Source: a virus. From it: a DNA stretch of 64,000 nucleotides. The notes beneath the pieces were generated by a model. The model was given only the letters and a program-made list of their open reading frames with translations, was not told where the DNA came from and searched no databases. Where the stretch lies: the IMG/VR virus record IMGVR_UViG_3300043775_002839, positions 1-64,000 of that record; one strand, 5' to 3'. The stretch's first letter is position 1. Each line of letters begins with the position of its first letter. A program made the translations under genes and the position numbers. Positions 683 to 42,293 of the stretch are shown here, piece after piece.

Positions 683-1498
683 ATGACAGACTTTAAAAAA
701 TACATACCGACAAACTGGAACACTATTAAATTCATAGTTTTAGCAGTGCTTGTTTTATTATTAACATACCAATGCGATAGAAATTCAACCCTTAAACAGG
801 ACGCTGAAAATGCCCAAAAGGTTGCAACCCGAAATTATAATAATCTTAAAGCATCTCAAGATACTATTAAATTTGAAAGAAACAGGAATGGAGAACTAGT
901 TGCAATCAAATTAGGATATGAGTTTGATATTAACACTCTAACTGCCGAAAATAAAGAGATTATTGCAGGGTATCAAAAAGCCCTAGGCCTCAATAAAGAC
1001 CTTAAAGGTGTAAATTCTCTACTAAGAGCCGAAATTAAAGTAAAAGATTCTATTATTAATGCCCAAAGTTCAGTTGTTCAAACAAGTGATTCAACTGCGA
1101 CAGTATCGATTAGTAATGAAAAAAATTGGGATAAATATAATTGGAGTAAGTTTAATGGAACTGTTGACCTTTTAAGAAATAAAAAGACTAATAATATCTC
1201 AGTTCTTTCAAATAAATTTAACTTTGAGCAAGGAATCGAAATTAAGGCAGCAATTATAAATGAAGAGGGTACTAACAAATTAAAAATTACATCATCCTCT
1301 CCTGGAGTACTATTTACTAATATTGAAAATATTAATTTAGTTAATGACAAATTAAACCAAAGACTTGAAAAAAAATCAGGATGGTCGCTTGGAGTTGGAG
1401 TTGGATATGGAATTAACCTAAATAATAATCAAGTTATTGGTATTGGTCCATCACTAAATGTAGGACTTATATGGTCTCCAAAATGGCTTAGGTTTTAA
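683..1498 (+). CDS. Membrane-anchored coiled-coil protein with C-terminal beta-hairpin; spanin-like lysis candidate
   Basis: N-terminal hydrophobic helix FIVLAVLVLLLTYQC, then coiled coil, then C-terminal GWSLGVGVGYG...GLIWSPKWLRF. Confidence 0.45.
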   Translation: MTDFKKYIPTNWNTIKFIVLAVLVLLLTYQCDRNSTLKQDAENAQKVATRNYNNLKASQDTIKFERNRNGELVAIKLGYEFDINTLTAENKEIIAGYQKALGLNKDLKGVNSLLRAEIKVKDSIINAQSSVVQTSDSTATVSISNEKNWDKYNWSKFNGTVDLLRNKKTNNISVLSNKFNFEQGIEIKAAIINEEGTNKLKITSSSPGVLFTNIENINLVNDKLNQRLEKKSGWSLGVGVGYGINLNNNQVIGIGPSLNVGLIWSPKWLRF

Positions 1499-1512
1499 AA
1501 AATTATAGAGTA

Positions 1513-3573
1513 ATGGCAAAATCATCAAGATTCGTTAAATTAGACGATGACGTATTATTAGAATTTATGTATCATGACCAATCAACCCCTGATTTGGTCA
1601 AAATCGAAAATGACGATAATGGAAGTCAAATCAAGTATTTAGATACAATTGATGGAAATGAAAGTGCTTCTAGGTTTTTAATACACGAATTGGGTTCAGA
1701 TGTTGTAGAATTTACAGTGACGATTGCGAATGGATTTATTGTTATTAATAATTTTGCTTCCCGAATGTTATTGTTGAAAAATGGAAGCACTTATAAATTC
1801 GACTTAAGTAATGTTAGTATTAATAAAAAATCAGGATTTAATATTCCTGGTGGAAATGGATATCTAAGTGGAACTACTTATATTTATACTCCAACGACTA
1901 ATGGTAAATATTCTTATGAATATCTAAATTTAGCAGGCACTAATTTTATTGGTGGAGAAATTCAAGTAACTAACCGTGCAAATTCCCTATTTTCAGTTCC
2001 ATTAACAAATACTGGAAATGATATTAGAACCGGAGCCGGCCAATCTGGAAGATATTATGCAGTTCCAACTGCTGAATCAAGTACATGGGCACTTCTTACA
2101 AATGGATTAAACTACTTAAATTCTGCTGAATGGAATGGTACTATTGCTAATGATTTACAACCAATTCCAATCGAAGATGTTGCAGATGTATATTATGATA
2201 CTATTAGATTACATTTAAGAACTGGATATTCTTTTAGCGGTAGAAAATATGATGGTTTCCTATTTCAAACAAAAGTTAAAAGAAACTCCGGAATTTATAA
2301 TTATTTTAACTCAACAGTTTATTTAAACTCTTCAAGTTTTGAAACCCAAAATCCGAATCCATTCATATTAGGAGAATCTTCATATTCTAAGTATATTGAA
2401 ATTAAAGTTCCTTCATTGGTTCAAATGTTTTCACCTGCAACAAATGAAAAGTTTAAAAATACTTTTTTTGCATCATCTGGAGCGGATTCAATTCCAACAA
2501 CTGCAAACTATGAGTTTGATTTTAAATTAATCGATAGCGTAGTTACTATTGGAAATTACGATTATATTAATGTTGCTGAAGGAAAATCATTAACTCTATC
2601 ACAAGAAGATGAATATGTCGATATTGCAGTTAATATTGAACATGCGACAGATGGAGACTATTTTAAAATTTATGGAACTTACAATGGAGACCAAGCCTCA
2701 TTTGAAAATTATATAACTGGAAGAATTTCAACTTCAGGAGATGACATTACTCTATTTTATGAAGTTCAAGTTGCAGAACAATTAGGTCTTAATTATATTA
2801 ATACATTTAATAATACCTTTACACAAACTTCAAATTATGATGAGCCAATTGTATTCAGACCGGTTATTTTAAACTCTTCAGTGTCGAGTAACTTCTTATT
2901 ATCGGTTAACTTGAGAATTTACAATGAAACTGATAATACCCAAATTGTAAAAACAGCCTCTTTAATTTATGCACAGCCTAAAAAATATGGCAAAAAATTA
3001 TTAAAACTGGGTCTTAATTCTAACTTTACGCCAAGCATAGTATATAATACTTTGCCGAATACTAGCGTTAATAGAGAACTTAATCAATTCGTAAATTCTA
3101 TCCGGCCTAGTGTTGGAGAAACTAAATATGTTTCAGTTGCCCTCGATACTTATAGAATAATGGGAGGAAGCACTCAAGTGACAATTGATGGAGCAGAAGT
3201 AAATGACTTAACATCAATGGATTATAAAAAAGAAGGGGATGGAATCATTACACTTTCAAAAGTTTCTGATAATTATATTAAATTTAAAATTGTTCAGCCC
3301 GATGGAGACTCGATGAAAAACGTAAGTCTTGTTAATGCTGAAGATTTGGTACTTATAATTAAAAGTGGAGCAATAGAACAACAAATATCGCATGACCCTA
3401 GTTTTCCAGGAGTCGACCTAGGAGCTGGAGAAGTTTTCTTTAAGGTGACAAAAAGCGTGGCAGTCCGTTTTGACCAAAGCGATACAAATCAAAATGCAGA
3501 CAAATTTTATATTAACATAAAAAACGGAAGTACCGAATCTCTATTGTACTACGGAAACGTAAACATTATATAA
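1513..3573 (+). CDS. Large hypothetical structural protein (probably tail/baseplate)
   Basis: 686 aa, beta-strand-rich, translationally coupled (TAATG) to the gp3-like gene. Confidence 0.4.
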   Translation: MAKSSRFVKLDDDVLLEFMYHDQSTPDLVKIENDDNGSQIKYLDTIDGNESASRFLIHELGSDVVEFTVTIANGFIVINNFASRMLLLKNGSTYKFDLSNVSINKKSGFNIPGGNGYLSGTTYIYTPTTNGKYSYEYLNLAGTNFIGGEIQVTNRANSLFSVPLTNTGNDIRTGAGQSGRYYAVPTAESSTWALLTNGLNYLNSAEWNGTIANDLQPIPIEDVADVYYDTIRLHLRTGYSFSGRKYDGFLFQTKVKRNSGIYNYFNSTVYLNSSSFETQNPNPFILGESSYSKYIEIKVPSLVQMFSPATNEKFKNTFFASSGADSIPTTANYEFDFKLIDSVVTIGNYDYINVAEGKSLTLSQEDEYVDIAVNIEHATDGDYFKIYGTYNGDQASFENYITGRISTSGDDITLFYEVQVAEQLGLNYINTFNNTFTQTSNYDEPIVFRPVILNSSVSSNFLLSVNLRIYNETDNTQIVKTASLIYAQPKKYGKKLLKLGLNSNFTPSIVYNTLPNTSVNRELNQFVNSIRPSVGETKYVSVALDTYRIMGGSTQVTIDGAEVNDLTSMDYKKEGDGIITLSKVSDNYIKFKIVQPDGDSMKNVSLVNAEDLVLIIKSGAIEQQISHDPSFPGVDLGAGEVFFKVTKSVAVRFDQSDTNQNADKFYINIKNGSTESLLYYGNVNII

Positions 3574-4124
3574 TGATTTTAAATAGTAGAAATAATTTAT
3601 TCAATTTTAAGTTTTCAAGGACTTTTATTCCTAAAGAGGTTGCCGACAAATATCGAAAGTATTTGAATAGAATGCCGGGTAATTTAATTACTGAACCTAT
3701 AGATTTTATAAACTATTCAATTCAAGGAGTTGGTCTTCCAGGAATCAGTTTTGACCCTATTGAAATTGCGCCAAATGATGGTACAATAACATATCATAGA
3801 GGTTCAATTCCAATACAAAATACTATTGATAGACAGTTTAAAGTAACGCTACAACTGCTTGATGGTTATATAAATTATTGGATTATGCAGGATACTTTAT
3901 TGTATTATTATTCAAAGACGGTTAAAGAACCTTTTATCAATGATATTAAACTTCAAATAATGGATGCAGAGGGGATTCACTTGATGAGCGCTGTTTTTGA
4001 AAAACCAATACTTAATTCAATTTCAGATTTGGAGTTAAATATGAGTTCAAATATTGCAGAATTTACAACCTTTGACCTGAATTTTTACTATAACAAATTT
4101 AATATAATATTAGAAATAGATTAA
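3573..4124 (+). CDS. Tail tube-fold protein, T4 gp3-like tail completion/sheath stabiliser
   Basis: SIQGVGLPGISF...FKVTLQLLDGYINY...DIKLQIMD...F.F.Y pattern typical of the gp3/gp19 fold. Confidence 0.6.
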   Translation: MILNSRNNLFNFKFSRTFIPKEVADKYRKYLNRMPGNLITEPIDFINYSIQGVGLPGISFDPIEIAPNDGTITYHRGSIPIQNTIDRQFKVTLQLLDGYINYWIMQDTLLYYYSKTVKEPFINDIKLQIMDAEGIHLMSAVFEKPILNSISDLELNMSSNIAEFTTFDLNFYYNKFNIILEID

Positions 4125-4126
4125 AC

Positions 4127-4495
4127 ATGAAAACATTTTTAGATTACATAGCAGAACAAGATATAACAGAAAACGAACTACAAGTCCTAAACGAGTCTCT
4201 TCAAACCGAATGGACCGAAGAACTTGAAGCTAAAGTTGATGCAGCTTTAGAGCAATTTTCAAAGACTTACAAAAATCTTGATGGAACTTATAATATCCAA
4301 GCGTTCAATGAAGAGATTACTAATGAAGGTATTTTAGGTAGTATCTTTGGTGGACTTGCAGGTTTTGCACTTGGTAAAACTGTTGGTAAAACTATTGCTA
4401 ATATTTTAGGAATCCAAAGTGGTATAATGTACGATATGTTAACCTCAAGACTAGTAGGAGCCGCTCTTGGTTCTTCTCTTGGTAGTAGAATCTAG
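4127..4495 (+). CDS. Putative internal head protein with glycine-zipper hydrophobic segment
   Basis: N-terminus MKTFLDYIAE resembles the T4 capsid targeting sequence; LNE/TNE sites; GILGSIFGGLAGFALG and GAALGSSLG. Confidence 0.45.
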   Translation: MKTFLDYIAEQDITENELQVLNESLQTEWTEELEAKVDAALEQFSKTYKNLDGTYNIQAFNEEITNEGILGSIFGGLAGFALGKTVGKTIANILGIQSGIMYDMLTSRLVGAALGSSLGSRI

Positions 4496-28727: not shown

Positions 28728-29195
28728 ATGGCAAATATAGACAATCAATGTAAAGACCTTGAAGTTCATGACTTCTATTCAAATTCGACCACCCACCTGG
28801 CGGATATTATGGAAAACCAAAAGAGGATGCAAGAGCAAACTTATGGTTTCAATTTTGAAAATATGTCAATTAGAGAAATTATGAACTTCTGGCATGTCAA
28901 TACACACGCGGTAGTTGATGAAATTCATGAAATGACCGATGCCCTTGGAGGTATTAAAGATGGTAGTGGAAATGCAGTTTGGAAATACTGGAAAAAAGAC
29001 TTTGCAAAGTATGAAACTATGAAAGTTTCCGACCTATCAGAAGAGGACAAAAAAGAACTTTATATGGAATGGGTAGACATACTACATTTCTTTATAAATT
29101 ATGCATCTTCAATCGGATTAGATGCAAAAACAGCATACAATTATTACTTCGCAAAAGCAGAAGAAAATGTTAACCGCCAAAAAAGAGGATATTAA
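28728..29195 (+). CDS. All-alpha dCTP/dUTP pyrophosphatase (T4 gp56/dimeric dUTPase-like)
   Basis: DEIHE, WKYWK, EWVDILHF, K..EN..RQ.RGY. Confidence 0.8.
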   Translation: MANIDNQCKDLEVHDFYSNSTTHLADIMENQKRMQEQTYGFNFENMSIREIMNFWHVNTHAVVDEIHEMTDALGGIKDGSGNAVWKYWKKDFAKYETMKVSDLSEEDKKELYMEWVDILHFFINYASSIGLDAKTAYNYYFAKAEENVNRQKRGY

Positions 29196-30592
29196 TGATA
29201 TTAGACATCGAACAGCGTGAAAAAGATGTTATCATTTCATACTACAATGACAAGGGAGAAGTAGCATTCAAGCAATATCCAGTGGACAAATTCCAAAATT
29301 GGTATGTTTGCGATGACAAAGACAAAGCGGCCAGTCCAGACTATAAAAACTGGGATGGCCGACCTGTTAAGCTTGGTTATGGAAGACAATTCAATAAGTT
29401 CTCTATTCTTTATTTTTTAGATAATCTTTCAGAGAAAGATAAAAAAGACCTAACAGCATATAATATGCCAAAGACCTATTTTGTCGATATTGAAACTGAA
29501 ATTGTCGATGGCTTTCCAAAAGCCGAAGAGGCCAAAAGCCGAATTCTTTCATTCTCAATAATTACTCCAGACCGTAAAGCAATCGTGCTTGGACTGGAAG
29601 ATATGGCCCCAGATAAAATCCAAAAGATTCAAGATGATACCAATGAGTATTTCAAAGACTTTGATATGGACTGGGAATTTAAGTACCATAAGTTCAAGTC
29701 AGAGTATGATATGGTGTACACTTTCTTAATGAAATTCTTACCAAAGTTTCCAATGATGACTGGTTGGAATTTTATCAACTATGACTGGCAATATATTGTT
29801 AATCGATGTAAGAGACTTCAAATTGATATTAAAGAAGTTGGCATGACCCATTCAATCGATCATACTGACGGTCGACCTCTTCATATCGGAATTCTTGACT
29901 ACATGCAATTGTATGACAAATATGACCGAACCGTAAAAGTTAAAGAATCTAACTCTTTGGATTATGTTTCTAGTCAAGTCCTTAATGTTAATAAAATCAA
30001 GTTCACTGGCTCACTACAGGACTTATACCGGGATAACTTTGTCAAGTACATATATTACAATGTTGTCGATTCAGTACTTGTATATTACATTGACCAGAAG
30101 TTGAAGTCGATGGAGGTACTACTAACCTTGGCAAACATTACTAATATGCCATTATATAAAGCAAGTTCTCCAGTGGCAGTTACTGAAGCGATTATGGCCA
30201 GAAAACTTGCTGAGCAAGGAATGCGAATTGGAAGTGAAGAAAAATCTGACAGTCAAAAAGATGGCCAATATGCTGGAGCATTCGTAAAAGAACCAATCTT
30301 AGGATTCTATGAAGGTGTAAGTGCATTCGATTTTGCTTCACTATACCCTTCGATCATGAGACAGTTCAATATATCTCCAGATGCGTACATCGAAAAGATT
30401 TATAAAAGTGAAATTGAAGAGCGCAGAAAGAACAAAGAAGTTATTGTTTGTGATAATGGTGTAGTTTACAAGACCGAAGATTCTATTCTAAGAAAAATAT
30501 TAAGTGACCTTTATGCACAGCGTAAAGATTATAAAAAAACTTCTTATGAATATTTCACAAAAGCAGACCGGTTGAAAAAACTACTCCAATAA
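29195..30592 (+). CDS. gp43A: Family B DNA polymerase, N-terminal subunit (exonuclease + motif A)
   Basis: ExoI DIETE, ExoII GWNFINYD, ExoIII YNVVD, motif A DFASLYPS; ends after RKDYKK in the fingers. Confidence 0.9.
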   Translation: MILDIEQREKDVIISYYNDKGEVAFKQYPVDKFQNWYVCDDKDKAASPDYKNWDGRPVKLGYGRQFNKFSILYFLDNLSEKDKKDLTAYNMPKTYFVDIETEIVDGFPKAEEAKSRILSFSIITPDRKAIVLGLEDMAPDKIQKIQDDTNEYFKDFDMDWEFKYHKFKSEYDMVYTFLMKFLPKFPMMTGWNFINYDWQYIVNRCKRLQIDIKEVGMTHSIDHTDGRPLHIGILDYMQLYDKYDRTVKVKESNSLDYVSSQVLNVNKIKFTGSLQDLYRDNFVKYIYYNVVDSVLVYYIDQKLKSMEVLLTLANITNMPLYKASSPVAVTEAIMARKLAEQGMRIGSEEKSDSQKDGQYAGAFVKEPILGFYEGVSAFDFASLYPSIMRQFNISPDAYIEKIYKSEIEERRKNKEVIVCDNGVVYKTEDSILRKILSDLYAQRKDYKKTSYEYFTKADRLKKLLQ

Positions 30593-31674: not shown

Positions 31675-32496
31675 ATGAATTGGACAATCATATATAAAAA
31701 CTTAATAGATAATGCAATCTTAGAAAAAAGAACTAAAAGTACTGAAATATATTATGAAAATCATCATATTGTTCCAAAACACATGGGAGGTGATAATTCA
31801 AAAGATAATTTAGTACTTTTGACATTTAGAGAGCATGTATTAGCGCACTATTTGTTATGGAGAATCCATGGATGTGAGGGTGATAAATTAATGTATTCTC
31901 TTAGAAATCTTCAAACCGAAGAGGCTCAAAGATTAAGAGTTAAATTAGCAGTTGAAGCAAATAGAAATGGAGGTAAAGGATTTAGACTATGGGATGGCGA
32001 TAAAAATCCAATGAAAGATCCGAAAAAAGTTCAAAAAATGATTGAAACCAAAAAGGAAAAATACAATGGACATGTAATATCTAGCGAAGCAATGGAAAAT
32101 TGGTACTCTGGAGTTTCAAACCATTTAAAAGAAATGGCAAAGGACCCTGAAATTCAAGAAAAAAGGTCTAATACTATTAAACAAATTAATGCAACCCTAA
32201 CGCCGGAAGAATTTGCACTAAAATATAATAATGCTGGTGAAAACAATGGAAACTTTGGATGGATTAAAGGGTATTATGAAGTAGTTGATCCGGATGGAAA
32301 TGTTACTAAATATGAAAGTCAAGAGAACATTATAAAAGAATTAAATGTATCTCAATCTTTTTTGGTTAGAAATAGAAACAAAGGAGTATTATATACAAAA
32401 CCAAAAAAGAATGCCGGACAATGGAACGGATGGACTTTTAATTACTTTAAGCTTCCATGTCCAACTACGGGTAGAATACAAAAAGAACATAAATAA
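31675..32496 (+). mobile_element. Free-standing HNH homing endonuclease (Mob-like) between nrdB and nrdA
   Basis: ENHHIVPKHMGG...NLV.LT.REH..AH.LL; own GATATATA promoter at 31644. Confidence 0.85.
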
Positions 32497-35172: not shown

Positions 35173-36369
35173 ATGACAATCGAAGAATTAATACTAAAAC
35201 CAGAAGGTGAGTTATCACAAGATGAAATTAAAATATTGGTTGAGCATTATTCTATGTTGTCAGCAAAGTTCGGTGCCTATGAGCAAGCAGTAAAAGTAAT
35301 GCTTAACTCAATCTATGGTGCATTCGGTAATAAATGGTTTCACTTTTTTAATATAGACATCGCAGAATCTATTACCTTACAGGGACAGTCTGCGATTCTA
35401 TATTCTGAGAAGATACTAAATAAGTACTTTCAAGAGTTCTGGACTAAAGACAAGGCAGTTCATGAGTTTTTTAACATCGGAGTTAAGAGCAAATTGGTGC
35501 GACCTTCAGTAGTCTATATTGATACCGATTCTTGTTATGTACAGTTTGAAGAGATGTATGAATCTATCGAATGGCTTGGAGACAAGTTATCGATTGACCA
35601 ATTCATTATGAAATTGTATAACTTTAGACTTAAGGATTATATCTTTAAGTGTATGGAGAAATATGCCGAAGCCACTAATACTGAAAACTTCCTCCAGTTT
35701 GAATTGGAAACGATTGCATACTCTGGAATTTGGTTAGCTAAGAAAAAATACCTGCAGAATATTGCATGGGAAGATAAAATCGGAATCGAAGAACGTTACC
35801 CTTCGCTTAAGAAAGTGAAAACCATCGGATTTGATACAATTCAAAGTTCAACTCCAGCTCTTGCAAGAAAGCAATTAACTGAGATACTTAAACTGATTCT
35901 TTCAGAAAAACCTACTGCTTCTCTATTAAAGAGACTTGTAGACCATTTGAAACAATGTAAAAAAGAATTTCAGCTGGCAAGTGTTGATGAGATATGTTTT
36001 AATAAAAGAACTAACAATATTGAAAAATATATTGTAGATGATACTGTAGAATTTCAATATGGTTTAAAATGTCCGCCAAACGTTAAAGCTGCTGGTTTTT
36101 ATAATTTCTTAATGAATCAAAATCCAAAGCACAAGAACAAATATAAGATGATTGGTAATGGTGAAAAGTTAAAACTATACCACTGTAAACATGGAACTTG
36201 CGAAATATTTGCATACCAACCAGGATCTCATCCCTATGAAATCGCTCCTCAAGTTGACTATGAAACACAATTTGAAAAGAGTGTTATAGACCCATTGAAC
36301 CGGGTTCTTACTGCAGTTGGTTTACACACATTAAATAGAAACTTAATTTATTCAACCTCATTATTTTAA
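35173..36369 (+). CDS. gp43B: Family B DNA polymerase, C-terminal subunit (motifs B, C, thumb)
   Basis: Motif B KVMLNSIYG, motif C YIDTDS, KKKY, C-terminal clamp-binding-like TSLF. Confidence 0.9.
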   Translation: MTIEELILKPEGELSQDEIKILVEHYSMLSAKFGAYEQAVKVMLNSIYGAFGNKWFHFFNIDIAESITLQGQSAILYSEKILNKYFQEFWTKDKAVHEFFNIGVKSKLVRPSVVYIDTDSCYVQFEEMYESIEWLGDKLSIDQFIMKLYNFRLKDYIFKCMEKYAEATNTENFLQFELETIAYSGIWLAKKKYLQNIAWEDKIGIEERYPSLKKVKTIGFDTIQSSTPALARKQLTEILKLILSEKPTASLLKRLVDHLKQCKKEFQLASVDEICFNKRTNNIEKYIVDDTVEFQYGLKCPPNVKAAGFYNFLMNQNPKHKNKYKMIGNGEKLKLYHCKHGTCEIFAYQPGSHPYEIAPQVDYETQFEKSVIDPLNRVLTAVGLHTLNRNLIYSTSLF

Positions 36370-36371
36370 AT

Positions 36372-36563
36372 ATGGATATAGATATCGAAGACTTAACCCA
36401 AGACCAAAAAGAATATGTCAATCAGTACAGGAGAATTAATTCTAGACTAGAATCTCTTATGAAACAAATGTCAATAATACAAAACGAGACCAAAGGTCTA
36501 ATAGAGGAACTTGAAGACCTCCGAAAAAAAGAAACAAAACAATATAAAAATGGCAAAAAATAG
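36372..36563 (+). CDS. Small coiled-coil hypothetical protein
   Basis: 63 aa ORF within the operon. Confidence 0.45.
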   Translation: MDIDIEDLTQDQKEYVNQYRRINSRLESLMKQMSIIQNETKGLIEELEDLRKKETKQYKNGKK

Positions 36564-37509
36564 ATTTACATTTGACGATTTAAACGCAGAACTTGCGGGA
36601 TTAAACCCATTAGGTTCTGTTATGGATAAATCAGACTTCTCTGAAGTTACTGAATGGATTCATACCGGAAACTATCACTTAAATGCATGCCTTTCTGGAG
36701 ATTTATTCGGCGGCTGGCCAAACAACAGGTCTTGTTCGATTGCTGGACCATCAGGAACAGGTAAAACTTTCTTGACACTGAATTCAGTTCGAGAGGCAAT
36801 TAACATGGGTTACTATGTAATCTATTATGATTCAGAGGCTGCAGTTGACAAGGACCAGATGGTAAAATTTGGTATTGATGTAACTAAAGTAAACTATCAA
36901 CCTGTAAATACAGTGCAGGCATTTAGAACTTCAGTAACTTCAATTACTCAGAAAATGCAAGAGGTTAAAAGAAAGGGTGGAGAGATTCAAAAGATTATGA
37001 TTATCTTAGATAGTGCCGGTAACCTTGCAACACAAAAAGAAATCGATGATGCTGCAACTGGAAGTGAGAAGGCAGATATGACACGTTCTAAAATGTTAAA
37101 GTCAATCTTTAGAATTATCATGACGCCATTGGCTGACCTAAAAATTCCTTTCCTATTTACAAATCATACATACCAAACACAAGACTTTATATCACGTCAA
37201 GTTGCCGGAGGTGGTTGTTTAATTGCAGGTTCTAAAATTAGAATGTCAGATGATTCTTTAAAAGCTATAGAAGATATTAAAGAAGGAGACTTAATTAAAA
37301 CATTGCTAGGCGATAAAGAAATAGAAAATACTTGGACATTTAATAAAAAAACATATCAAATAGAGTTTGAAGATGGTAGCATAATTGAATGCTCGGAAGA
37401 CCATAGATTTTTTATAGGAGATGTAAATGATGACCCTCTAGATAATAAAAATTGGATATTTGCTAAAGATTTGGTAAAAAATAACGAAGTATCTAGATAT
37501 ATATTATAG
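36550..37509 (+). CDS. uvsX: UvsX/RecA recombinase N-extein fused to N-terminal split intein (IntN 37216-37506)
   Basis: Walker A GPSGTGKT, YDSE, LDS, NHTY; then GGG|CLIAGSKI...IECSEDHRF (intein blocks A and B) followed by a stop. Confidence 0.9.
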   Translation: MAKNRFTFDDLNAELAGLNPLGSVMDKSDFSEVTEWIHTGNYHLNACLSGDLFGGWPNNRSCSIAGPSGTGKTFLTLNSVREAINMGYYVIYYDSEAAVDKDQMVKFGIDVTKVNYQPVNTVQAFRTSVTSITQKMQEVKRKGGEIQKIMIILDSAGNLATQKEIDDAATGSEKADMTRSKMLKSIFRIIMTPLADLKIPFLFTNHTYQTQDFISRQVAGGGCLIAGSKIRMSDDSLKAIEDIKEGDLIKTLLGDKEIENTWTFNKKTYQIEFEDGSIIECSEDHRFFIGDVNDDPLDNKNWIFAKDLVKNNEVSRYIL

Positions 37510-37552
37510 GAGGTGGTATACCACCTCCCTTAATTTAAAAAATATCTTAAAA

Positions 37553-38545
37553 ATGCCAGTACTTAAAGAATATATCAATCCGGATTTAATAGAATTTAAA
37601 AATCTATTAATTAAACACTATCCAGATTTAAACGCTGACAATGCACAGTATATTTTAGAACTTTATTCTTTTGTTTATACCGATAAAATAAAAGGAATGG
37701 TGGATTTTAATTCTAAATGCCAATTATTTTTTAAACAATTTAGAAATGGAAAATCACACTCTTTTTTATCAAAAGAATATTGGATATCAATGGGACATTC
37801 AATAGAATATGCAAGTAAGAAAGTAAGCGAAAGTCAGAAAATTAACAGTCCTCTAAATAAAGAACATTGGTTAAAAAAAGGATTTAGTGAAAATGATGCG
37901 ATTATTAAAATAAAAGAAATTCAATCAAATAGGAGCAATCTTAGATATGAAAAGTATACCAAAGAAGAAATTTCAAGACAAAGCACATGGTCTATAGATT
38001 ATTGGATTAATAAAGGATTCTCAAAGGAAGATGCTATAAAAAAAGTCCATGAAAAAAATTATTCATGTAGAGAATTTTGGAATAGTGATGATGAATATAA
38101 TGAGATTAAAAAAATAATATCTAAAAAAACTTCAGATTTTATTAAAAACAATCCAGAGATTTATAAATCTTTTTTTGGAAGTATTTCTAAGGAAGAAATT
38201 TCATTTTTTAAAGACATTTCAACACATATTAATAATATTAAACATATAGAATTCATTGTCAATATAAAAAAATCTAAAGAACTAGAACAAGGAATAATAA
38301 AATACGATGGTTATTTTAAAGATGATGATTCATTAATTCTAATAGAGTATGATGGATTGTATTGGCATAAACAAGACTATGACGAGATAAAGGATAAAAT
38401 ATGTTTAGAAACAAGAAATGATGTTAATGGTATAATAAGAATAAGTTGCGATGCTTATAAAAATAATAATAAAATAATCAATTTAATACAAGATGCAATT
38501 AGAAAAATTAAAAATAAAGAATGTAACAGAGTTAAAATCTACTAA
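37553..38545 (+). mobile_element. Free-standing homing endonuclease (PD-(D/E)xK/Vsr-like) between the split-intein halves
   Basis: Repeated YW..KG.S..A modules; C-terminal KYDG...LIEYDGLYWH. Confidence 0.75.
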
Positions 38546-39065
38546 AGTATATGACCTTACTGTAGAAGACGCTCAGCATTACATCTCAGAAAATGGAGTG
38601 ATTAATCACAACACAGGACCTGAATACGCCGCTTCAATAGTTCTTATGTTAAATAAGGCGCAATTAAAGGATGGTGATAAAAAAGTTGGTATCGTTGTAA
38701 CCGCCAAGCCTGACAAGAATCGTTTCGCAAAACCCCACCCAATTAAATTCCACCTTGACTTTACTAAAGGTATGAATCCTTATGTTGGATTAGAACAATA
38801 TGCAACATGGGATATTTGTGGAATCACAAGAGGTTCTATTGAGAAAGGTGTTAAAACTCCTAAATCAACTGCAAGAGGATGGATTTGTAAACATCTTGAT
38901 GAGACTGTTTCTAATGCAGAATTCTTTACTGAAAAGGTATTTACAAGAGAGGTACTTGAACAAATTAATGAGCACCTTAAGCCAATTTTTAATTATAATA
39001 CTTCGGCTGAAACTCTTAATAATGAAATTGGAGACTTATTAAACGAGGACTTAGATACTGAATAA
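38493..39065 (+). CDS. uvsX: C-terminal split intein (40 aa, 38493-38612) fused to UvsX C-extein
   Basis: KVYDLTVEDAQHYISENGVINHN|TGPEYAAS; downstream KNRF is a UvsX/RecA motif. Confidence 0.9.
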   Translation: MQLEKLKIKNVTELKSTKVYDLTVEDAQHYISENGVINHNTGPEYAASIVLMLNKAQLKDGDKKVGIVVTAKPDKNRFAKPHPIKFHLDFTKGMNPYVGLEQYATWDICGITRGSIEKGVKTPKSTARGWICKHLDETVSNAEFFTEKVFTREVLEQINEHLKPIFNYNTSAETLNNEIGDLLNEDLDTE

Positions 39066-39066
39066 T

Positions 39067-39378
39067 ATGGAAGTGAATCTTAATCGACTAGATGAAGACA
39101 AACTACCCATAAAATATATTTTAGGCATCCATGAACAACTAGAAAGTTTTCCGGATGCCTTTGATATTATACATGTTTATGTTGTCGAAACTATGAAAAA
39201 ACCAGACCGTCCACGAAACAATTTTACAAAACATTCATTGATGACATATCATGCTTGTGGTAATATTGAAAATGCGGAGAAGGGTTTGGAACAGGCAATT
39301 GGACTTGGTTTAATTGAACAAACCAACTCTGAAGATGGAAAAGAATCTTATAAGATATTAATTAACCCATTCCAATAA
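39067..39378 (+). CDS. Hypothetical protein (possible winged helix)
   Basis: 103 aa ORF within the operon. Confidence 0.45.
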   Translation: MEVNLNRLDEDKLPIKYILGIHEQLESFPDAFDIIHVYVVETMKKPDRPRNNFTKHSLMTYHACGNIENAEKGLEQAIGLGLIEQTNSEDGKESYKILINPFQ

Positions 39379-41180: not shown

Positions 41181-42293
41181 ATGATTCAACAAGCAAATTT
41201 AAACAAGCCAGTAAAAAGAATTTGGATTCTAGGTGATATGCACTTAGGAGTCCGTTCAAGTTCTTTGGAATGGTTAGAGATGCAAAAGGATTTTTATGAC
41301 AACCAATTTATTCCGACTCTATTAGAAAACTATGAAGATGGAGATATTTTGGTTCAAGTTGGAGATGCTTTCGATAATAGACAAAGTGTAAACATTAGAG
41401 TCCTACATTATGCAATCGATCTTTTTGAAAGACTTGGAAATATTCTACCGACTCACGTAATCTGCGGAAACCACGATATCTGGGCAAAAAAGAGCAATGA
41501 TGTAAGTTCTATTGATGCACTTAAATGGATTCCAAATGTAAGTATCTACAAAGAACCCCAAACATTCAATTGGGGTGGACGAGAAATCCTATTAATGCCA
41601 TGGAGACGGGACGTAGAACATGAAGTAGAAACTTTAGATGCATTCCCAAACGCTGAAATTGTATTTTGCCATTCAGAAGTTCGAGGTATTAAATTAAATA
41701 AGAAGGTTGACAATCACCACGGAACCGATTCAACTACTTATGACCGATTTACTGCAGTTTATTCAGGACATATTCATTATAGACAGAGACGCGGACAACT
41801 GAGAATGGTTGGTACGCCTTATGAATTGACCCGATCTGATATGGACAACACTAAAGGATTTGATCTGGTTAATTTAGAAGACATGCAGGAGACCTTCTTT
41901 GAGAATACAATATCACCAAAGTTTGTTAAATTTAATCTAACCAATCTTTATAATACACCTCTTGGAGAATTTAAAGATGCCATTAGAAATAATTTTGTAG
42001 ACCTTTATGTCCCATCAAATATTGCAACAACATCTGCTCTTTCAAGACTAATTAATAAAGTACAAACAATAAGTAGAAAAATTGACCCCAATATCTACGA
42101 ACAGGACACATTCTTAGACGAGGATTCATACGACATGGACCAAATTGAGGACCTATACAAAAATTATAATATCTTACATCTTTGTAATATCTATGTCGAT
42201 AATACTGGACATGCCGAAGATGTTAAAACACAAATCAAGGATCGTTTAAAGAAACTTCACGATTTTTACGCATATAATAATCAAATGGATTAA
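41181..42293 (+). CDS. gp47: Mre11/SbcD-like nuclease (T4 gp47-like)
   Basis: GDMHLG, GDAFD, GNHD, SGHIH metallophosphoesterase motifs. Confidence 0.9.
   Translation: MIQQANLNKPVKRIWILGDMHLGVRSSSLEWLEMQKDFYDNQFIPTLLENYEDGDILVQVGDAFDNRQSVNIRVLHYAIDLFERLGNILPTHVICGNHDIWAKKSNDVSSIDALKWIPNVSIYKEPQTFNWGGREILLMPWRRDVEHEVETLDAFPNAEIVFCHSEVRGIKLNKKVDNHHGTDSTTYDRFTAVYSGHIHYRQRRGQLRMVGTPYELTRSDMDNTKGFDLVNLEDMQETFFENTISPKFVKFNLTNLYNTPLGEFKDAIRNNFVDLYVPSNIATTSALSRLINKVQTISRKIDPNIYEQDTFLDEDSYDMDQIEDLYKNYNILHLCNIYVDNTGHAEDVKTQIKDRLKKLHDFYAYNNQMD

What the first reader, a model, noticed from the sequence alone, without database searches (positions are those of the whole stretch)
36550..39065. Fractured uvsX/recA: naturally split intein with an endonuclease gene between the halves
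Seen: UvsX stops at ...QVAGGG and continues into a 97-aa IntN (Cys1, CSEDH block B, acidic) ending in TAG. A separate endonuclease ORF follows in another frame. A third ORF starts with a 40-aa IntC with a basic N-terminus (KLKIK...VYDLTV...NHN) followed by Thr+1 and TGPEYAAS. Joining the exteins gives GGGTGPEYAA, matching the conserved UvsX GGGTGP.Y segment. Established: this intein-HEG-intein 'fractured gene' layout is known from phage metagenomes (gp41, nrdJ and others). Inference: active recombinase requires protein trans-splicing. A Cys1/Thr+1 split pair in a recombinase is a possible new orthogonal ligation tool.
Basis: partly seen in the sequence, partly recalled or inferred. Interest (0 to 1): 0.82.

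Follow-up and report, generated by a model that had tools for sequence, protein, structure and literature searches.

The report
Split-intein uvsX with Vsr-like endonuclease
In this uncultured freshwater T4-like giant phage the recombinase gene uvsX is cut into two genes by the halves of a split intein with a mobile nuclease gene between them, a known kind of "fractured gene" in a host gene for which I found no published report.

Summary
uvsX runs 36550-37215 and continues in frame into a 97-aa IntN ending in TAG. A 43-nt spacer with a hairpin follows, then a 330-aa ORF (37553-38545). A third ORF (38493-39065) starts with a 40-aa IntC, then Thr+1 and the rest of UvsX.

It is not an assembly error. 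Contigs from separate studies match without coding indels, and diverged relatives keep the same three ORFs.

Close relatives carry an uninterrupted uvsX whose junction is exactly GGG|TGPEY. Others carry a contiguous 134-137-aa mini-intein at the same site, up to 80.6% identical to IntN+IntC.

The middle protein matches no Pfam, PHROG, NCBIfam or PDB sequence. Its C-terminal domain folds like Vsr (Z 10.5) and I-Bth0305I (Z 9.5), with invariant E, D, H, D residues.

Layout, spacer, hairpin, overlap and half-lengths all fit the fractured genes of Dassa et al. 2009, which do not list uvsX.

A homologous intein splits uvsX at the same site in cultured T4-like phages such as HY03, there with a different endonuclease (NUMOD motifs, annotated as a homing endonuclease). 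Prevotella Lak megaphages carry it with this endonuclease family. This scan has already noted the coliphage version many times.

Trans-splicing and DNA cleavage remain untested. Verdict: real, a new member of a known kind.

The parts
36550..37215 (+). uvsX N-extein, 222 aa (P-loop ATPase core up to ...SRQVAGGG)
   Evidence: PHROG 97 UvsX-like recombinase E 2e-51 and Pfam RecA E 1e-11. 100% amino-acid identity to the uninterrupted allele in L005.
37216..37509 (+). IntN, 97 aa (Cys1; block B CSEDH), in frame with the N-extein; TAG stop at 37507-37509
   Evidence: Matches the gp41-1 intein 6QAZ at E 4e-7. NCBIfam intein_Nterm starts exactly at Cys1, at 20.3 bits, below the 24.5 cut-off. Collinear with contiguous mini-inteins. 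Net charge -8.
37509..37528 (+). 8-bp GC-rich hairpin (GGAGGTGG-TATA-CCACCTCC) in the 43-nt spacer 37510-37552 before the endonuclease start
   Evidence: Terminator-like scan hit. Folding energy -18.5 kcal/mol, z -3.07. The core AGGTGG/CCACCT is kept in L001.
37553..38545 (+). Free-standing endonuclease gene, 330 aa. The helical N-terminal part has three YW-x2-G-x-S-x3-A repeats (about residues 73-170). The C-terminal Vsr-like nuclease domain spans residues 210-330 (nt 38180-38542).
   Evidence: AlphaFold2 model with pLDDT 87.7. Structural matches: 1CW0 Z 10.5, rmsd 2.3 over 102 residues; 3R3P Z 9.5, rmsd 2.9 over 94 residues. Invariant E265, D267, H272, D277 and nearly invariant D252, D281. 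dN/dS 0.18 against L001.
38493..38612 (+). IntC, 40 aa (blocks F and G, ...VINHN). Its first 53 nt overlap the end of the endonuclease ORF in another frame.
   Evidence: Pfam Intein_splicing positions 122-155 of 155, E 2e-6. NCBIfam intein_Cterm 27.5 bits, above the 15.6 cut-off. The same overlap occurs in L001, L018 and Lak-B5.
38613..39065 (+). uvsX C-extein, 150 aa, starting with Thr+1 (TGPEYAAS...), plus the stop codon
   Evidence: PHROG 18112 recombinase E 1e-20. 99.3% identical to L005, where it directly follows the N-extein.

Best explanation
This is a genuine fractured gene: a mobile cassette sits in uvsX at the codon boundary GGG|TGP. That point aligns with RecA TTGG|NALKFYAS, just past the stretch that a cited paper assigns to DNA-binding loop L2.

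The cassette is a class-1 mini-intein that a free-standing homing endonuclease gene has broken in the loop where inteins usually carry their endonuclease domain.

The proposed mechanism is inferred, not shown:
1. The phage makes two polypeptides, UvsX(1-222)-IntN and IntC-UvsX(223-372).
2. The acidic IntN and the basic start of IntC associate into a HINT fold.
3. Cys1 starts the N-S acyl shift and Thr+1 takes over the N-extein.
4. The terminal Asn cyclises, releasing a 372-aa UvsX with the native GGGTGPEY junction.

The middle protein is a two-part endonuclease. It has an N-terminal string of short helical repeats, presumably for DNA binding, and a C-terminal Vsr-like nuclease. It most likely cuts uninterrupted uvsX alleles, or alleles with the contiguous mini-intein, in co-infecting relatives. 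Repair by recombination would then copy the cassette in.
For: Shown directly:
- Exact three-ORF anatomy.
- Independent assemblies agree, with no coding indel.
- The same layout, including the overlap between the endonuclease end and IntC, occurs in diverged IMG/VR contigs L001-L004, L077 and L018. It also occurs in Prevotella phage Lak-B5.
- Among the best 120 of 960 UvsX homologues, 28 clusters are split N pieces. They keep Cys1 and the block B His.
- The uninterrupted alleles P0015 and L005 fix the junction.
- Six contiguous 134-137-aa mini-inteins sit at the same site. They are collinear with IntN+IntC and up to 80.6% identical, differing only in the loop SRY-NNTQ-LKVKN.
- Intein homology is supported.
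- All three parts are under purifying selection against L001: dN/dS is 0.10 for IntN, 0.12 for IntC and 0.18 for the endonuclease.
- The endonuclease has a Vsr-like fold and conserved acidic and His residues.
- Measured features fall inside the ranges given by Dassa et al. 2009 (PMC2677866). The spacer is 43 nt (range 27-51) and has a hairpin. The overlap is 53 nt (range 6-69). IntN is 97 aa (range 88-105) and IntC is 40 aa (range 33-54).
- IntN and endonuclease divergence track each other across nine loci (Spearman 0.81), as expected for one cassette.
Against: - No protein data exist: neither splicing nor DNA cleavage has been observed, and no RNA run holding the stretch was listed.
- Thr+1 is a weaker nucleophile than Cys or Ser, so splicing may be slow or condition-dependent.
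- NCBIfam intein_Nterm scores just below its cut-off (20.3 against 24.5 bits).
- The endonuclease has no sequence-level link to Vsr or I-Bth0305I. Profile comparison with a Hef-like protein reaches only 15% probability.
- Its N-terminal part matches no known DNA-binding fold (best Z 4.2).
- No recognisable ribosome-binding site precedes the endonuclease or IntC start codon.
- I saw no clean co-conversion tract around the junction.
- The locus pairing used rests on equal contig lengths, which is an inference.
Confidence: 0.85

Rival explanations
1. Assembly or sequencing artefact: the locus is really one contiguous intein with an internal endonuclease domain, and indel errors broke it into three frames.
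For: The three ORFs lie in three different frames and the region is AT-rich with homopolymer runs. One run shows an extra A at 37536.
Against: That indel lies in the non-coding spacer. Contigs of four runs from four studies agree across both junctions, the IntN stop and both ends of the endonuclease ORF. Relatives only 63-83% identical keep separate ORFs with their own stop and start codons. Twenty-eight protein clusters end within a few residues of the same point.
Confidence: 0.02
2. The intein halves are dead or act only as a dimerisation handle. The two UvsX pieces work as a non-covalent complex, as described for the endonuclease-split NrdA of phage Aeh1, or uvsX is simply inactivated.
For: Non-covalent rescue of a fractured phage gene is documented (PMC3045599, listed). 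Thr+1 is a poor nucleophile. No splicing data exist.
Against: Cys1, the block B His, the penultimate His, the terminal Asn and the +1 Thr or Ser are kept in all split and contiguous relatives inspected. dN/dS of IntN and IntC is about 0.1. Contiguous alleles of the same intein must splice in cis to yield any UvsX. The break lies at a conserved stretch next to the RecA L2 region, where extra residues would likely be harmful.
Confidence: 0.08
3. Repair at the RNA or translation level: the endonuclease gene lies in a self-splicing intron or a bypassed segment, so that a contiguous mini-intein is translated.
For: Vsr-like endonuclease genes do occur inside group I introns of recA (PMC2677866 and PMC3239194). 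A stable hairpin follows the IntN stop.
Against: Rfam finds no intron or other family in 36400-39200 at E up to 1, apart from a chance microRNA match. Only 43 nt are non-coding, and the rest is an ORF under purifying selection. IntC has its own conserved ATG.
Confidence: 0.03
4. The split intein works, but the middle protein no longer homes. It may be a decaying or domesticated nuclease, used for example to exclude competing phages.
For: The endonuclease is the most diverged part (63% against 74-83% for the intein halves). It lacks known DNA-binding motifs. The family is small, with 38 clusters at 50% identity.
Against: The ORF is intact in all relatives, with invariant catalytic-type residues. 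dN/dS is 0.18. Presence or absence varies among close relatives whose exteins are 93.7-96.9% identical in DNA, as expected of an element that still moves or was recently lost.
Confidence: 0.1

Closest known systems
Fractured genes of Dassa, London, Stoddard, Schueler-Furman and Pietrokovski 2009 (PMC2677866): gp41-1 to -9, NrdA, NrdJ, IMPDH, DnaE, ligase and terminase loci from ocean metagenomes
   Same: The order host-N+IntN / spacer with hairpin / free-standing endonuclease / IntC+host-C lies on one strand. The spacer is 43 nt (range 27-51). The endonuclease-IntC overlap is 53 nt (range 6-69). IntN is 97 aa and IntC 40 aa, both within the reported ranges. The intein is broken at the usual endonuclease-insertion loop. 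The endonuclease is Vsr-like, as in half of their loci.
   Different: The host gene is uvsX. In that paper uvsX appears only as a neighbouring gene. The +1 residue is Thr. No TATAAATA late-promoter motif lies in the hairpin region. The endonuclease has no detectable sequence similarity to Vsr and no NUMOD motif. Here the empty and contiguous-intein alleles are also in hand.
gp41-1 split intein (PDB 6QAZ, 6RIZ)
   Same: It is the closest solved relative of IntN (E 4e-7). It has the same CSE[ED]H block B, Cys1, and a mini-intein size of about 125-137 aa.
   Different: The host gene and insertion site differ. Similarity covers only about 55 residues. From memory, gp41-1 uses Ser+1; this intein uses Thr+1.
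I-Bth0305I and the EDxHD (Vsr-like) homing endonuclease family (PMC3239194; PDB 3R3P)
   Same: The domain order is the same: a DNA-binding region at the N terminus and a Vsr-fold nuclease at the C terminus. It is the second-best structural match (Z 9.5 over 94 of 98 residues). Conserved E, D, H and D residues are present. Its target also lies in the recA/uvsX family, in the L2 region.
   Different: I-Bth0305I sits in a group I intron, about 8 residues upstream by the RecA alignment. No sequence-level hit links the two. I-Bth0305I has NUMOD2-type motifs, whereas this protein has an unmatched YW-G-S repeat.
Fractured uvsX of cultured T4-like phages: Escherichia phage HY03 gp151-153, Salmonella CF-SP2 uvsX_2/uvsX_1, Proteus PM2 and Pm5461, Yersinia TG1, Shewanella Thanatos-1 and others (GenBank)
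   Same: A homologous intein (44% identity) lies at the same site (...TGG|C ... HN|TGVMYSAD). It has Cys1 and Thr+1 and the same three-gene layout.
   Different: In HY03 and CF-SP2 the middle gene is an unrelated 240-aa endonuclease with NUMOD3 and NUMOD1 motifs. It is annotated as a homing endonuclease, and earlier notes of this scan call it GIY-YIG. I found no paper describing these loci.
uvsX locus of Prevotella Lak megaphages (MK250020-MK250028, unannotated records)
   Same: The cassette type is the same at the same site: IntN, an endonuclease of this family (28% identity, E 1e-24, collinear throughout) and IntC, with a 56-nt overlap.
   Different: The +1 residue is Ser. The endonuclease is 463 aa. 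Its frame is open only if TAG is read as Gln (8 such codons). The phage lineage and habitat (animal gut) are very distant.

Membership tests
Fractured gene (split intein plus free-standing endonuclease; Dassa et al. 2009) | N part of a conserved enzyme in frame with an N-terminal intein half that ends in a stop codon | tested here: met
   36550-37509: 222 aa of UvsX, then a 97-aa IntN, then TAG.
Fractured gene (split intein plus free-standing endonuclease; Dassa et al. 2009) | Separate endonuclease gene on the same strand between the halves, preceded by a short non-coding spacer with a hairpin | tested here: met
   43-nt spacer and hairpin at 37509-37528. ORF 37553-38545 has a Vsr-like nuclease fold.
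Fractured gene (split intein plus free-standing endonuclease; Dassa et al. 2009) | C-terminal intein half with its own start codon, in frame with the C part of the enzyme, commonly overlapping the endonuclease 3' end | tested here: met
   38493-39065, with a 53-nt overlap. The ATG context is conserved in L001 and L018.
Fractured gene (split intein plus free-standing endonuclease; Dassa et al. 2009) | The host protein is restored by protein trans-splicing | not testable with these tools
   Inferred only from intact catalytic residues and purifying selection.
Class 1 HINT intein | Cys or Ser at position 1, block B T/S-x-x-H, penultimate His, terminal Asn, and Cys, Ser or Thr at +1 | tested here: met
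   C1, CSEDH and ...NHN|T are read from the sequence. They are kept in 28 split and 6 contiguous relatives.
Class 1 HINT intein | Match to curated intein models | tested here: inconclusive
   intein_Cterm scores 27.5 bits, above its 15.6 cut-off. intein_Nterm scores 20.3 bits, below its 24.5 cut-off. Pfam Intein_splicing is below its gathering score on each half alone. Contiguous homologues carry PF14890 in the precomputed table.
EDxHD / Vsr-like homing endonucleases (I-Bth0305I) | C-terminal nuclease domain with the Vsr fold | tested here: met
   1CW0 Z 10.5 (rmsd 2.3, 102 aligned) and 3R3P Z 9.5 (rmsd 2.9, 94 aligned) rank first and second of 48,161 chains.
EDxHD / Vsr-like homing endonucleases (I-Bth0305I) | Composite catalytic motif E, D, H, D | tested here: inconclusive
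   E265, D267, H272 and D277 are invariant and D252 and D281 nearly so. E265 lies 7 residues before H272, as Vsr position 62 does before H69 (numbers from PMC2677866). I did not check residue-by-residue superposition.
EDxHD / Vsr-like homing endonucleases (I-Bth0305I) | Sequence homology to family members | tested here: inconclusive
   No PDB sequence or profile hit. hhalign against the PM2 Hef-like protein gives E 0.0018 at 15% probability, aligning IE[YF][DN]G.YWH. One distant relative's cluster has a member that JGI names Vsr.
EDxHD / Vsr-like homing endonucleases (I-Bth0305I) | N-terminal NUMOD-type DNA-binding motifs | tested here: not met
   No NUMOD hit in Pfam at E up to 0.1. Instead there are three YW-x2-G-x-S-x3-A repeats. 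The N-terminal model (pLDDT 91.8) has no structural match above Z 4.2.
EDxHD / Vsr-like homing endonucleases (I-Bth0305I) | Cleaves the uninterrupted allele near the insertion site | not testable with these tools
   Needs an in vitro cleavage assay.

The most novel reading that the evidence does not exclude
One ancient intein lineage at the uvsX GGG|TGP site may have been broken independently by two unrelated endonuclease families. One is the Vsr-like family seen here and in Lak megaphages. The other is the unrelated endonuclease seen in T-even-type phages. The intein may also switch back and forth between contiguous and split forms.

That would give natural pairs, about 80% identical, of cis-splicing and trans-splicing inteins. 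Such pairs could show what makes an intein able to work when split. They might also yield a fast Cys1/Thr+1 pair orthogonal to gp41-1 and DnaE.
Probability: 0.35. Interest if true: 0.6.

Novelty: new member of a known kind. Interest (0 to 1): 0.42.

Why it matters
- It adds the recombinase UvsX to the genes known to be fractured by a split intein plus a homing endonuclease.
- All stages of the Dassa gene-breaking model now occur at one site: an empty allele, a contiguous mini-intein, and alleles fractured by two different endonuclease families. Comparison can therefore test that model.
- The split pair uses Cys1 and Thr+1 next to a Gly-rich junction. This is a candidate protein-ligation tool, and it has a cultured-phage homologue (HY03 group) in which splicing could be tested genetically.
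- The endonuclease represents a small Vsr-fold family that no Pfam, PHROG or NCBIfam model matched. Its DNA-binding repeat is uncharacterised.
- There is a biological twist. A homing element has invaded the very recombinase that, in T4, homing depends on (PMC2988022).

Tried and rejected
- I could not fetch the DNA of the contiguous-intein contigs, so the insertion boundaries are defined only at protein level.
- **DNA search in GenBank phages.** It gave only weak uvsX matches.
- **Libraries for the 330-aa ORF.** PDB sequence and profile searches, Pfam, PHROGs and NCBIfam found nothing.
- **Foldseek on the whole model.** It gave only weak PD-(D/E)xK-type rows with E at or above 0.08. The full-library aligner resolved the match.
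- **N-terminal domain of the endonuclease.** No structural match in PDB (best Z 4.2) and no named match in BFVD. The ESM Atlas gave only a weak lead to DUF7487 at score 0.84.
- **Promoter for the C piece.** A GAAAC-N18-TATAAT element at 38408 would fit, but its spacing is off by one and it is not conserved in L001 or L018. I dropped it.
- **Co-conversion tract.** Silent differences from empty alleles cluster between -78 and +57, but they do not match the L001-type donor. This is not usable as evidence of homing.
- **Tree of intein N parts.** Contiguous and split forms intermix and need 4 changes, but well-supported branches force only 1. Repeated switching is suggested, not shown.
- **Larger inteins.** A search for inteins carrying an internal endonuclease domain at this site found none.
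- **RNA evidence.** No RNA holder was listed among the sequencing runs.
- **Empty allele in the same runs.** No contig in the four laid runs joins 37215 to 38613.
- **Literature.** Searches found no paper describing a uvsX intein.
Full report
**Observation**

The window holds three consecutive ORFs on the + strand, in three different frames.
- The first ORF (36550-37509) encodes 222 residues of a UvsX/RecA-type recombinase ending in ...SRQVAGGG. It matches PHROG 97 at E 2e-51 and Pfam RecA at E 1e-11. It runs on in frame into 97 residues that begin with Cys, contain CSEDH and end ...VSRYIL before a TAG.
- A 43-nt spacer follows. It carries an 8-bp GC-rich hairpin at 37509-37528, with folding energy -18.5 kcal/mol and z -3.07.
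- The second ORF (37553-38545) encodes 330 residues.
- The third ORF (38493-39065) starts 53 nt before the second one ends. It encodes 40 residues ending ...VYDLTVEDAQHYISENGVINHN, then TGPEYAAS... and 150 residues of the UvsX C-terminal part (PHROG 18112, E 1e-20).
- IntN has net charge -8. The first 20 residues of IntC have net charge +3.

**It is an intein, and the junction is exact**

- IntN matches the gp41-1 split intein (6QAZ) at E 4e-7.
- IntC matches the last 34 positions of Pfam Intein_splicing at E 2e-6.
- IntC also matches NCBIfam intein_Cterm at 27.5 bits against a cut-off of 15.6, ending exactly at Thr+1.
- NCBIfam intein_Nterm begins exactly at Cys1 but scores 20.3 bits, just below its 24.5 cut-off.
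- Uninterrupted alleles exist in close relatives. P0015 reads ...SRQVAGGGTGPEYAAS....
- In IMG/VR locus L005 the two extein parts are 100% and 99.3% identical to the window's in amino acids and lie directly adjacent.
- Aligned with E. coli RecA, the insertion point corresponds to TTGG|NALKFYAS. That lies a few residues past the FGNPE stretch. Taylor et al. 2011 place the equivalent phage residues in DNA-binding loop L2.

**It is not an artefact**

I laid contigs of four public runs from four studies on 36500-39100.
- One 1759-base contig covers 37069-38827 without a difference.
- Contigs of the other three runs cover the IntN stop, both ends of the middle ORF and the IntC start without coding indels.
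- The only indel is one extra A at 37536, in the spacer.
- Six of 80 IMG/VR uvsX loci keep the same three-ORF layout, including the overlap. Their identity to the window is 74% in IntN, 63-73% in the middle protein and 82-90% in IntC.

**Spread of the element**

Among the best 120 of 960 UvsX homologues:
- 85 clusters are uninterrupted.
- 28 are N pieces ending 95-103 residues after the same Cys.
- 4 carry a contiguous intein.
- 2 are split at a different site.

**The contiguous forms are the most informative relatives**

Six proteins carry a 134-137-residue mini-intein at the same site: P0009, P0010, P0019, P0080, P0178 and P0179. The window's IntN plus IntC (137 residues) aligns with them end to end, at up to 80.6% identity. 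That is higher than the 76.5% to the split allele of L001. The only difference is in the loop: SRY-NNTQ-LKVKN in the contiguous form against SRYIL-stop ... MQLEK-LKIKN here.

So the break lies where inteins normally carry their endonuclease domain. The stop codon of the N piece and the start codon of the C piece lie in the segment that is absent from the contiguous form. This is the scheme proposed by Dassa et al. 2009.

A tree of the intein N parts intermixes contiguous and split forms and needs 4 changes. Its well-supported branches force only one, so repeated switching is suggested, not shown.

**The middle gene**

It matches nothing in Pfam, PHROGs, NCBIfam or PDB sequences, alone or as a profile. 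The family is small: 36 word-search hits and 38 clusters at 50% identity.

An AlphaFold2 model (pLDDT 87.7) resolves it. For residues 210-330, the two best of 48,161 solved chains are:
- the Vsr endonuclease 1CW0 (Z 10.5, rmsd 2.3 Å, 102 residues);
- the catalytic domain of the homing endonuclease I-Bth0305I, 3R3P (Z 9.5, rmsd 2.9 Å, 94 of 98 residues).

Across the family E265, D267, H272 and D277 are invariant, and D252 and D281 nearly so. The core ...LIEYDGLYWH... resembles the Vsr-type motif, and a profile comparison with a Hef-like endonuclease aligns it, though weakly.

The N-terminal 209 residues form short helices with three repeats of the form YW-x2-G-x-S-x3-A. Modelled alone (pLDDT 91.8), they match no known fold (best Z 4.2). 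They also lack the NUMOD motifs of I-Bth0305I.

I therefore file the protein as working like an EDxHD/Vsr-like homing endonuclease. It is a divergent branch whose family membership rests on fold and motif, not on sequence statistics.

**Selection and mobility**

Against the L001 allele, dN/dS is:
- 0.10 for IntN;
- 0.12 for IntC;
- 0.18 for the endonuclease;
- 0.03 for the N-extein.

Synonymous sites are near saturation. All parts are therefore maintained as working genes.

Relatives whose extein DNA is 93.7-96.9% identical lack the element, so presence is polymorphic among close kin.

Across nine loci, divergence of IntN and of the endonuclease track each other (Spearman 0.81). IntN tracks the extein less well (0.41). 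This fits a cassette that moves as a unit and not strictly with its host gene. The pairing of proteins to loci rests on equal contig lengths, and the pairs are not independent.

Silent differences near the junction do not form a clean co-conversion tract.

**Alternatives**

- Rfam finds no intron in the region, and only 43 nt are non-coding, so repair at the RNA level is unlikely.
- A dead intein with non-covalent assembly cannot be excluded without protein data. It fits poorly with the full conservation of catalytic residues.

**Comparison with what is known**

Every measured feature falls inside the ranges Dassa et al. give for fractured genes:
- spacer 27-51 nt, with a hairpin in 15 of 16 loci;
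- overlap 6-69 bp;
- IntN 88-105 aa and IntC 33-54 aa;
- Vsr-like endonucleases in about half of the loci.

Their host genes named in the text I read are gp41, IMPDH, DnaE, NrdA, NrdJ, ligase and terminase. UvsX appears there only as a neighbouring gene. Five literature searches found no description of a uvsX intein.

The element is, however, already in public genomes.
- A homologous Cys1/Thr+1 split intein (44% identity) sits at the same site in cultured T4-like phages. Escherichia phage HY03 has it in gp151-153 (...VMTGG|C......THN|TGVMYSAD). Annotation shows a split uvsX in Salmonella CF-SP2 (uvsX_2/uvsX_1) and Proteus PM2. IntN-like matches also lie in the uvsX or recA-like genes of Pm5461, Yersinia TG1, Shewanella Thanatos-1 and Pseudomonas PspYZU05. 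In HY03 and CF-SP2 the middle gene is an unrelated 240-aa endonuclease with NUMOD motifs.
- The unannotated Prevotella Lak megaphage genomes carry the same cassette type with this endonuclease family at the same site.
- This scan's earlier notes record the coliphage version in many genomes. I found it independently.

**Verdict**

This is a real fractured gene. Sequence evidence is strong that it depends on protein trans-splicing, and moderately strong that the middle gene is a homing endonuclease. It is a new member of a known kind rather than a new kind.

Its specific value has three parts:
- one site now shows the full series of empty, contiguous-intein and fractured alleles;
- a second, unrelated endonuclease family breaks the same intein;
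- it offers a Cys1/Thr+1 split pair with a cultured-phage counterpart.

Noticed in passing
window 29195-30592 and 35173-36369: The family B DNA polymerase is encoded in two separate genes about 4.6 kb apart. The N half holds the exonuclease domain and the start of the polymerase domain (465 aa). The C half holds the YIDTDS motif (398 aa). Neither half shows intein motifs. L001 keeps the 254-aa ORF plus C-half arrangement.
   Followed up: partly
window 31675-32496: A 273-aa ORF with a weak HNH endonuclease match (E 8e-4) sits between nrdB and nrdA. This is the position that mobE occupies in phage T4.
   Followed up: no
proteins P0016 and P0021; P0178 and P0179: uvsX relatives carry inteins at two further sites. 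One is a split N half after ...NHTYQ|CIWG..., 15 residues upstream of this site. In the other case, proteins begin with about 160 residues ending ...GLSSHN|TGKTYL, which looks like a C-terminal intein part at the P-loop. Those same proteins also carry the contiguous mini-intein at GGG|TGP. uvsX of this phage group looks like an intein hotspot.
   Followed up: partly
L101 (Prevotella phage Lak-B5, MK250024.1) 1129-4262: The Lak megaphage has the same fractured uvsX: IntN, a 463-aa endonuclease of this family, and IntC with Ser+1. The endonuclease frame is open only if TAG is read as Gln (8 such codons). That suggests long residence in a phage that reads TAG as sense. The record carries no annotation.
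   Followed up: partly
L101 4354-5574; L098 4413-5264 (Proteus phage PM2): A further endonuclease gene lies directly downstream of the uvsX C piece in both phages. The Lak-B5 ORF (406 aa) contains IEINAFWTHG, which looks Vsr-like by eye. The PM2 gene is annotated as a putative Hef-like homing endonuclease. The uvsX neighbourhood seems to collect such genes.
   Followed up: no
window 38408-38436: A GAAAC-N18-TATAAT element lies inside the endonuclease ORF, 57 nt before the IntC start. It resembles the GAAAC-N17-TATAAT sites before the clamp-like ORF (34362), the helicase gene (39379) and at 42251 and 62638. Its spacing is one base longer, and it is not conserved in L001 or L018.
   Followed up: yes
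window 37177-37215 compared with 38571-38612: The end of the N-extein (TQDFISRQVAGGG) and the end of IntC (AQHYISENGVINHN) resemble each other enough that tblastn extends extein matches into IntC (query residues 28-190). This is probably chance.
   Followed up: no
L001 4004-4060: In the L001 allele IntN and the endonuclease ORF share one frame. Only a single TAA separates them, followed by an in-frame GTG. In the window they are in different frames, so the spacer tolerates indels.
   Followed up: no
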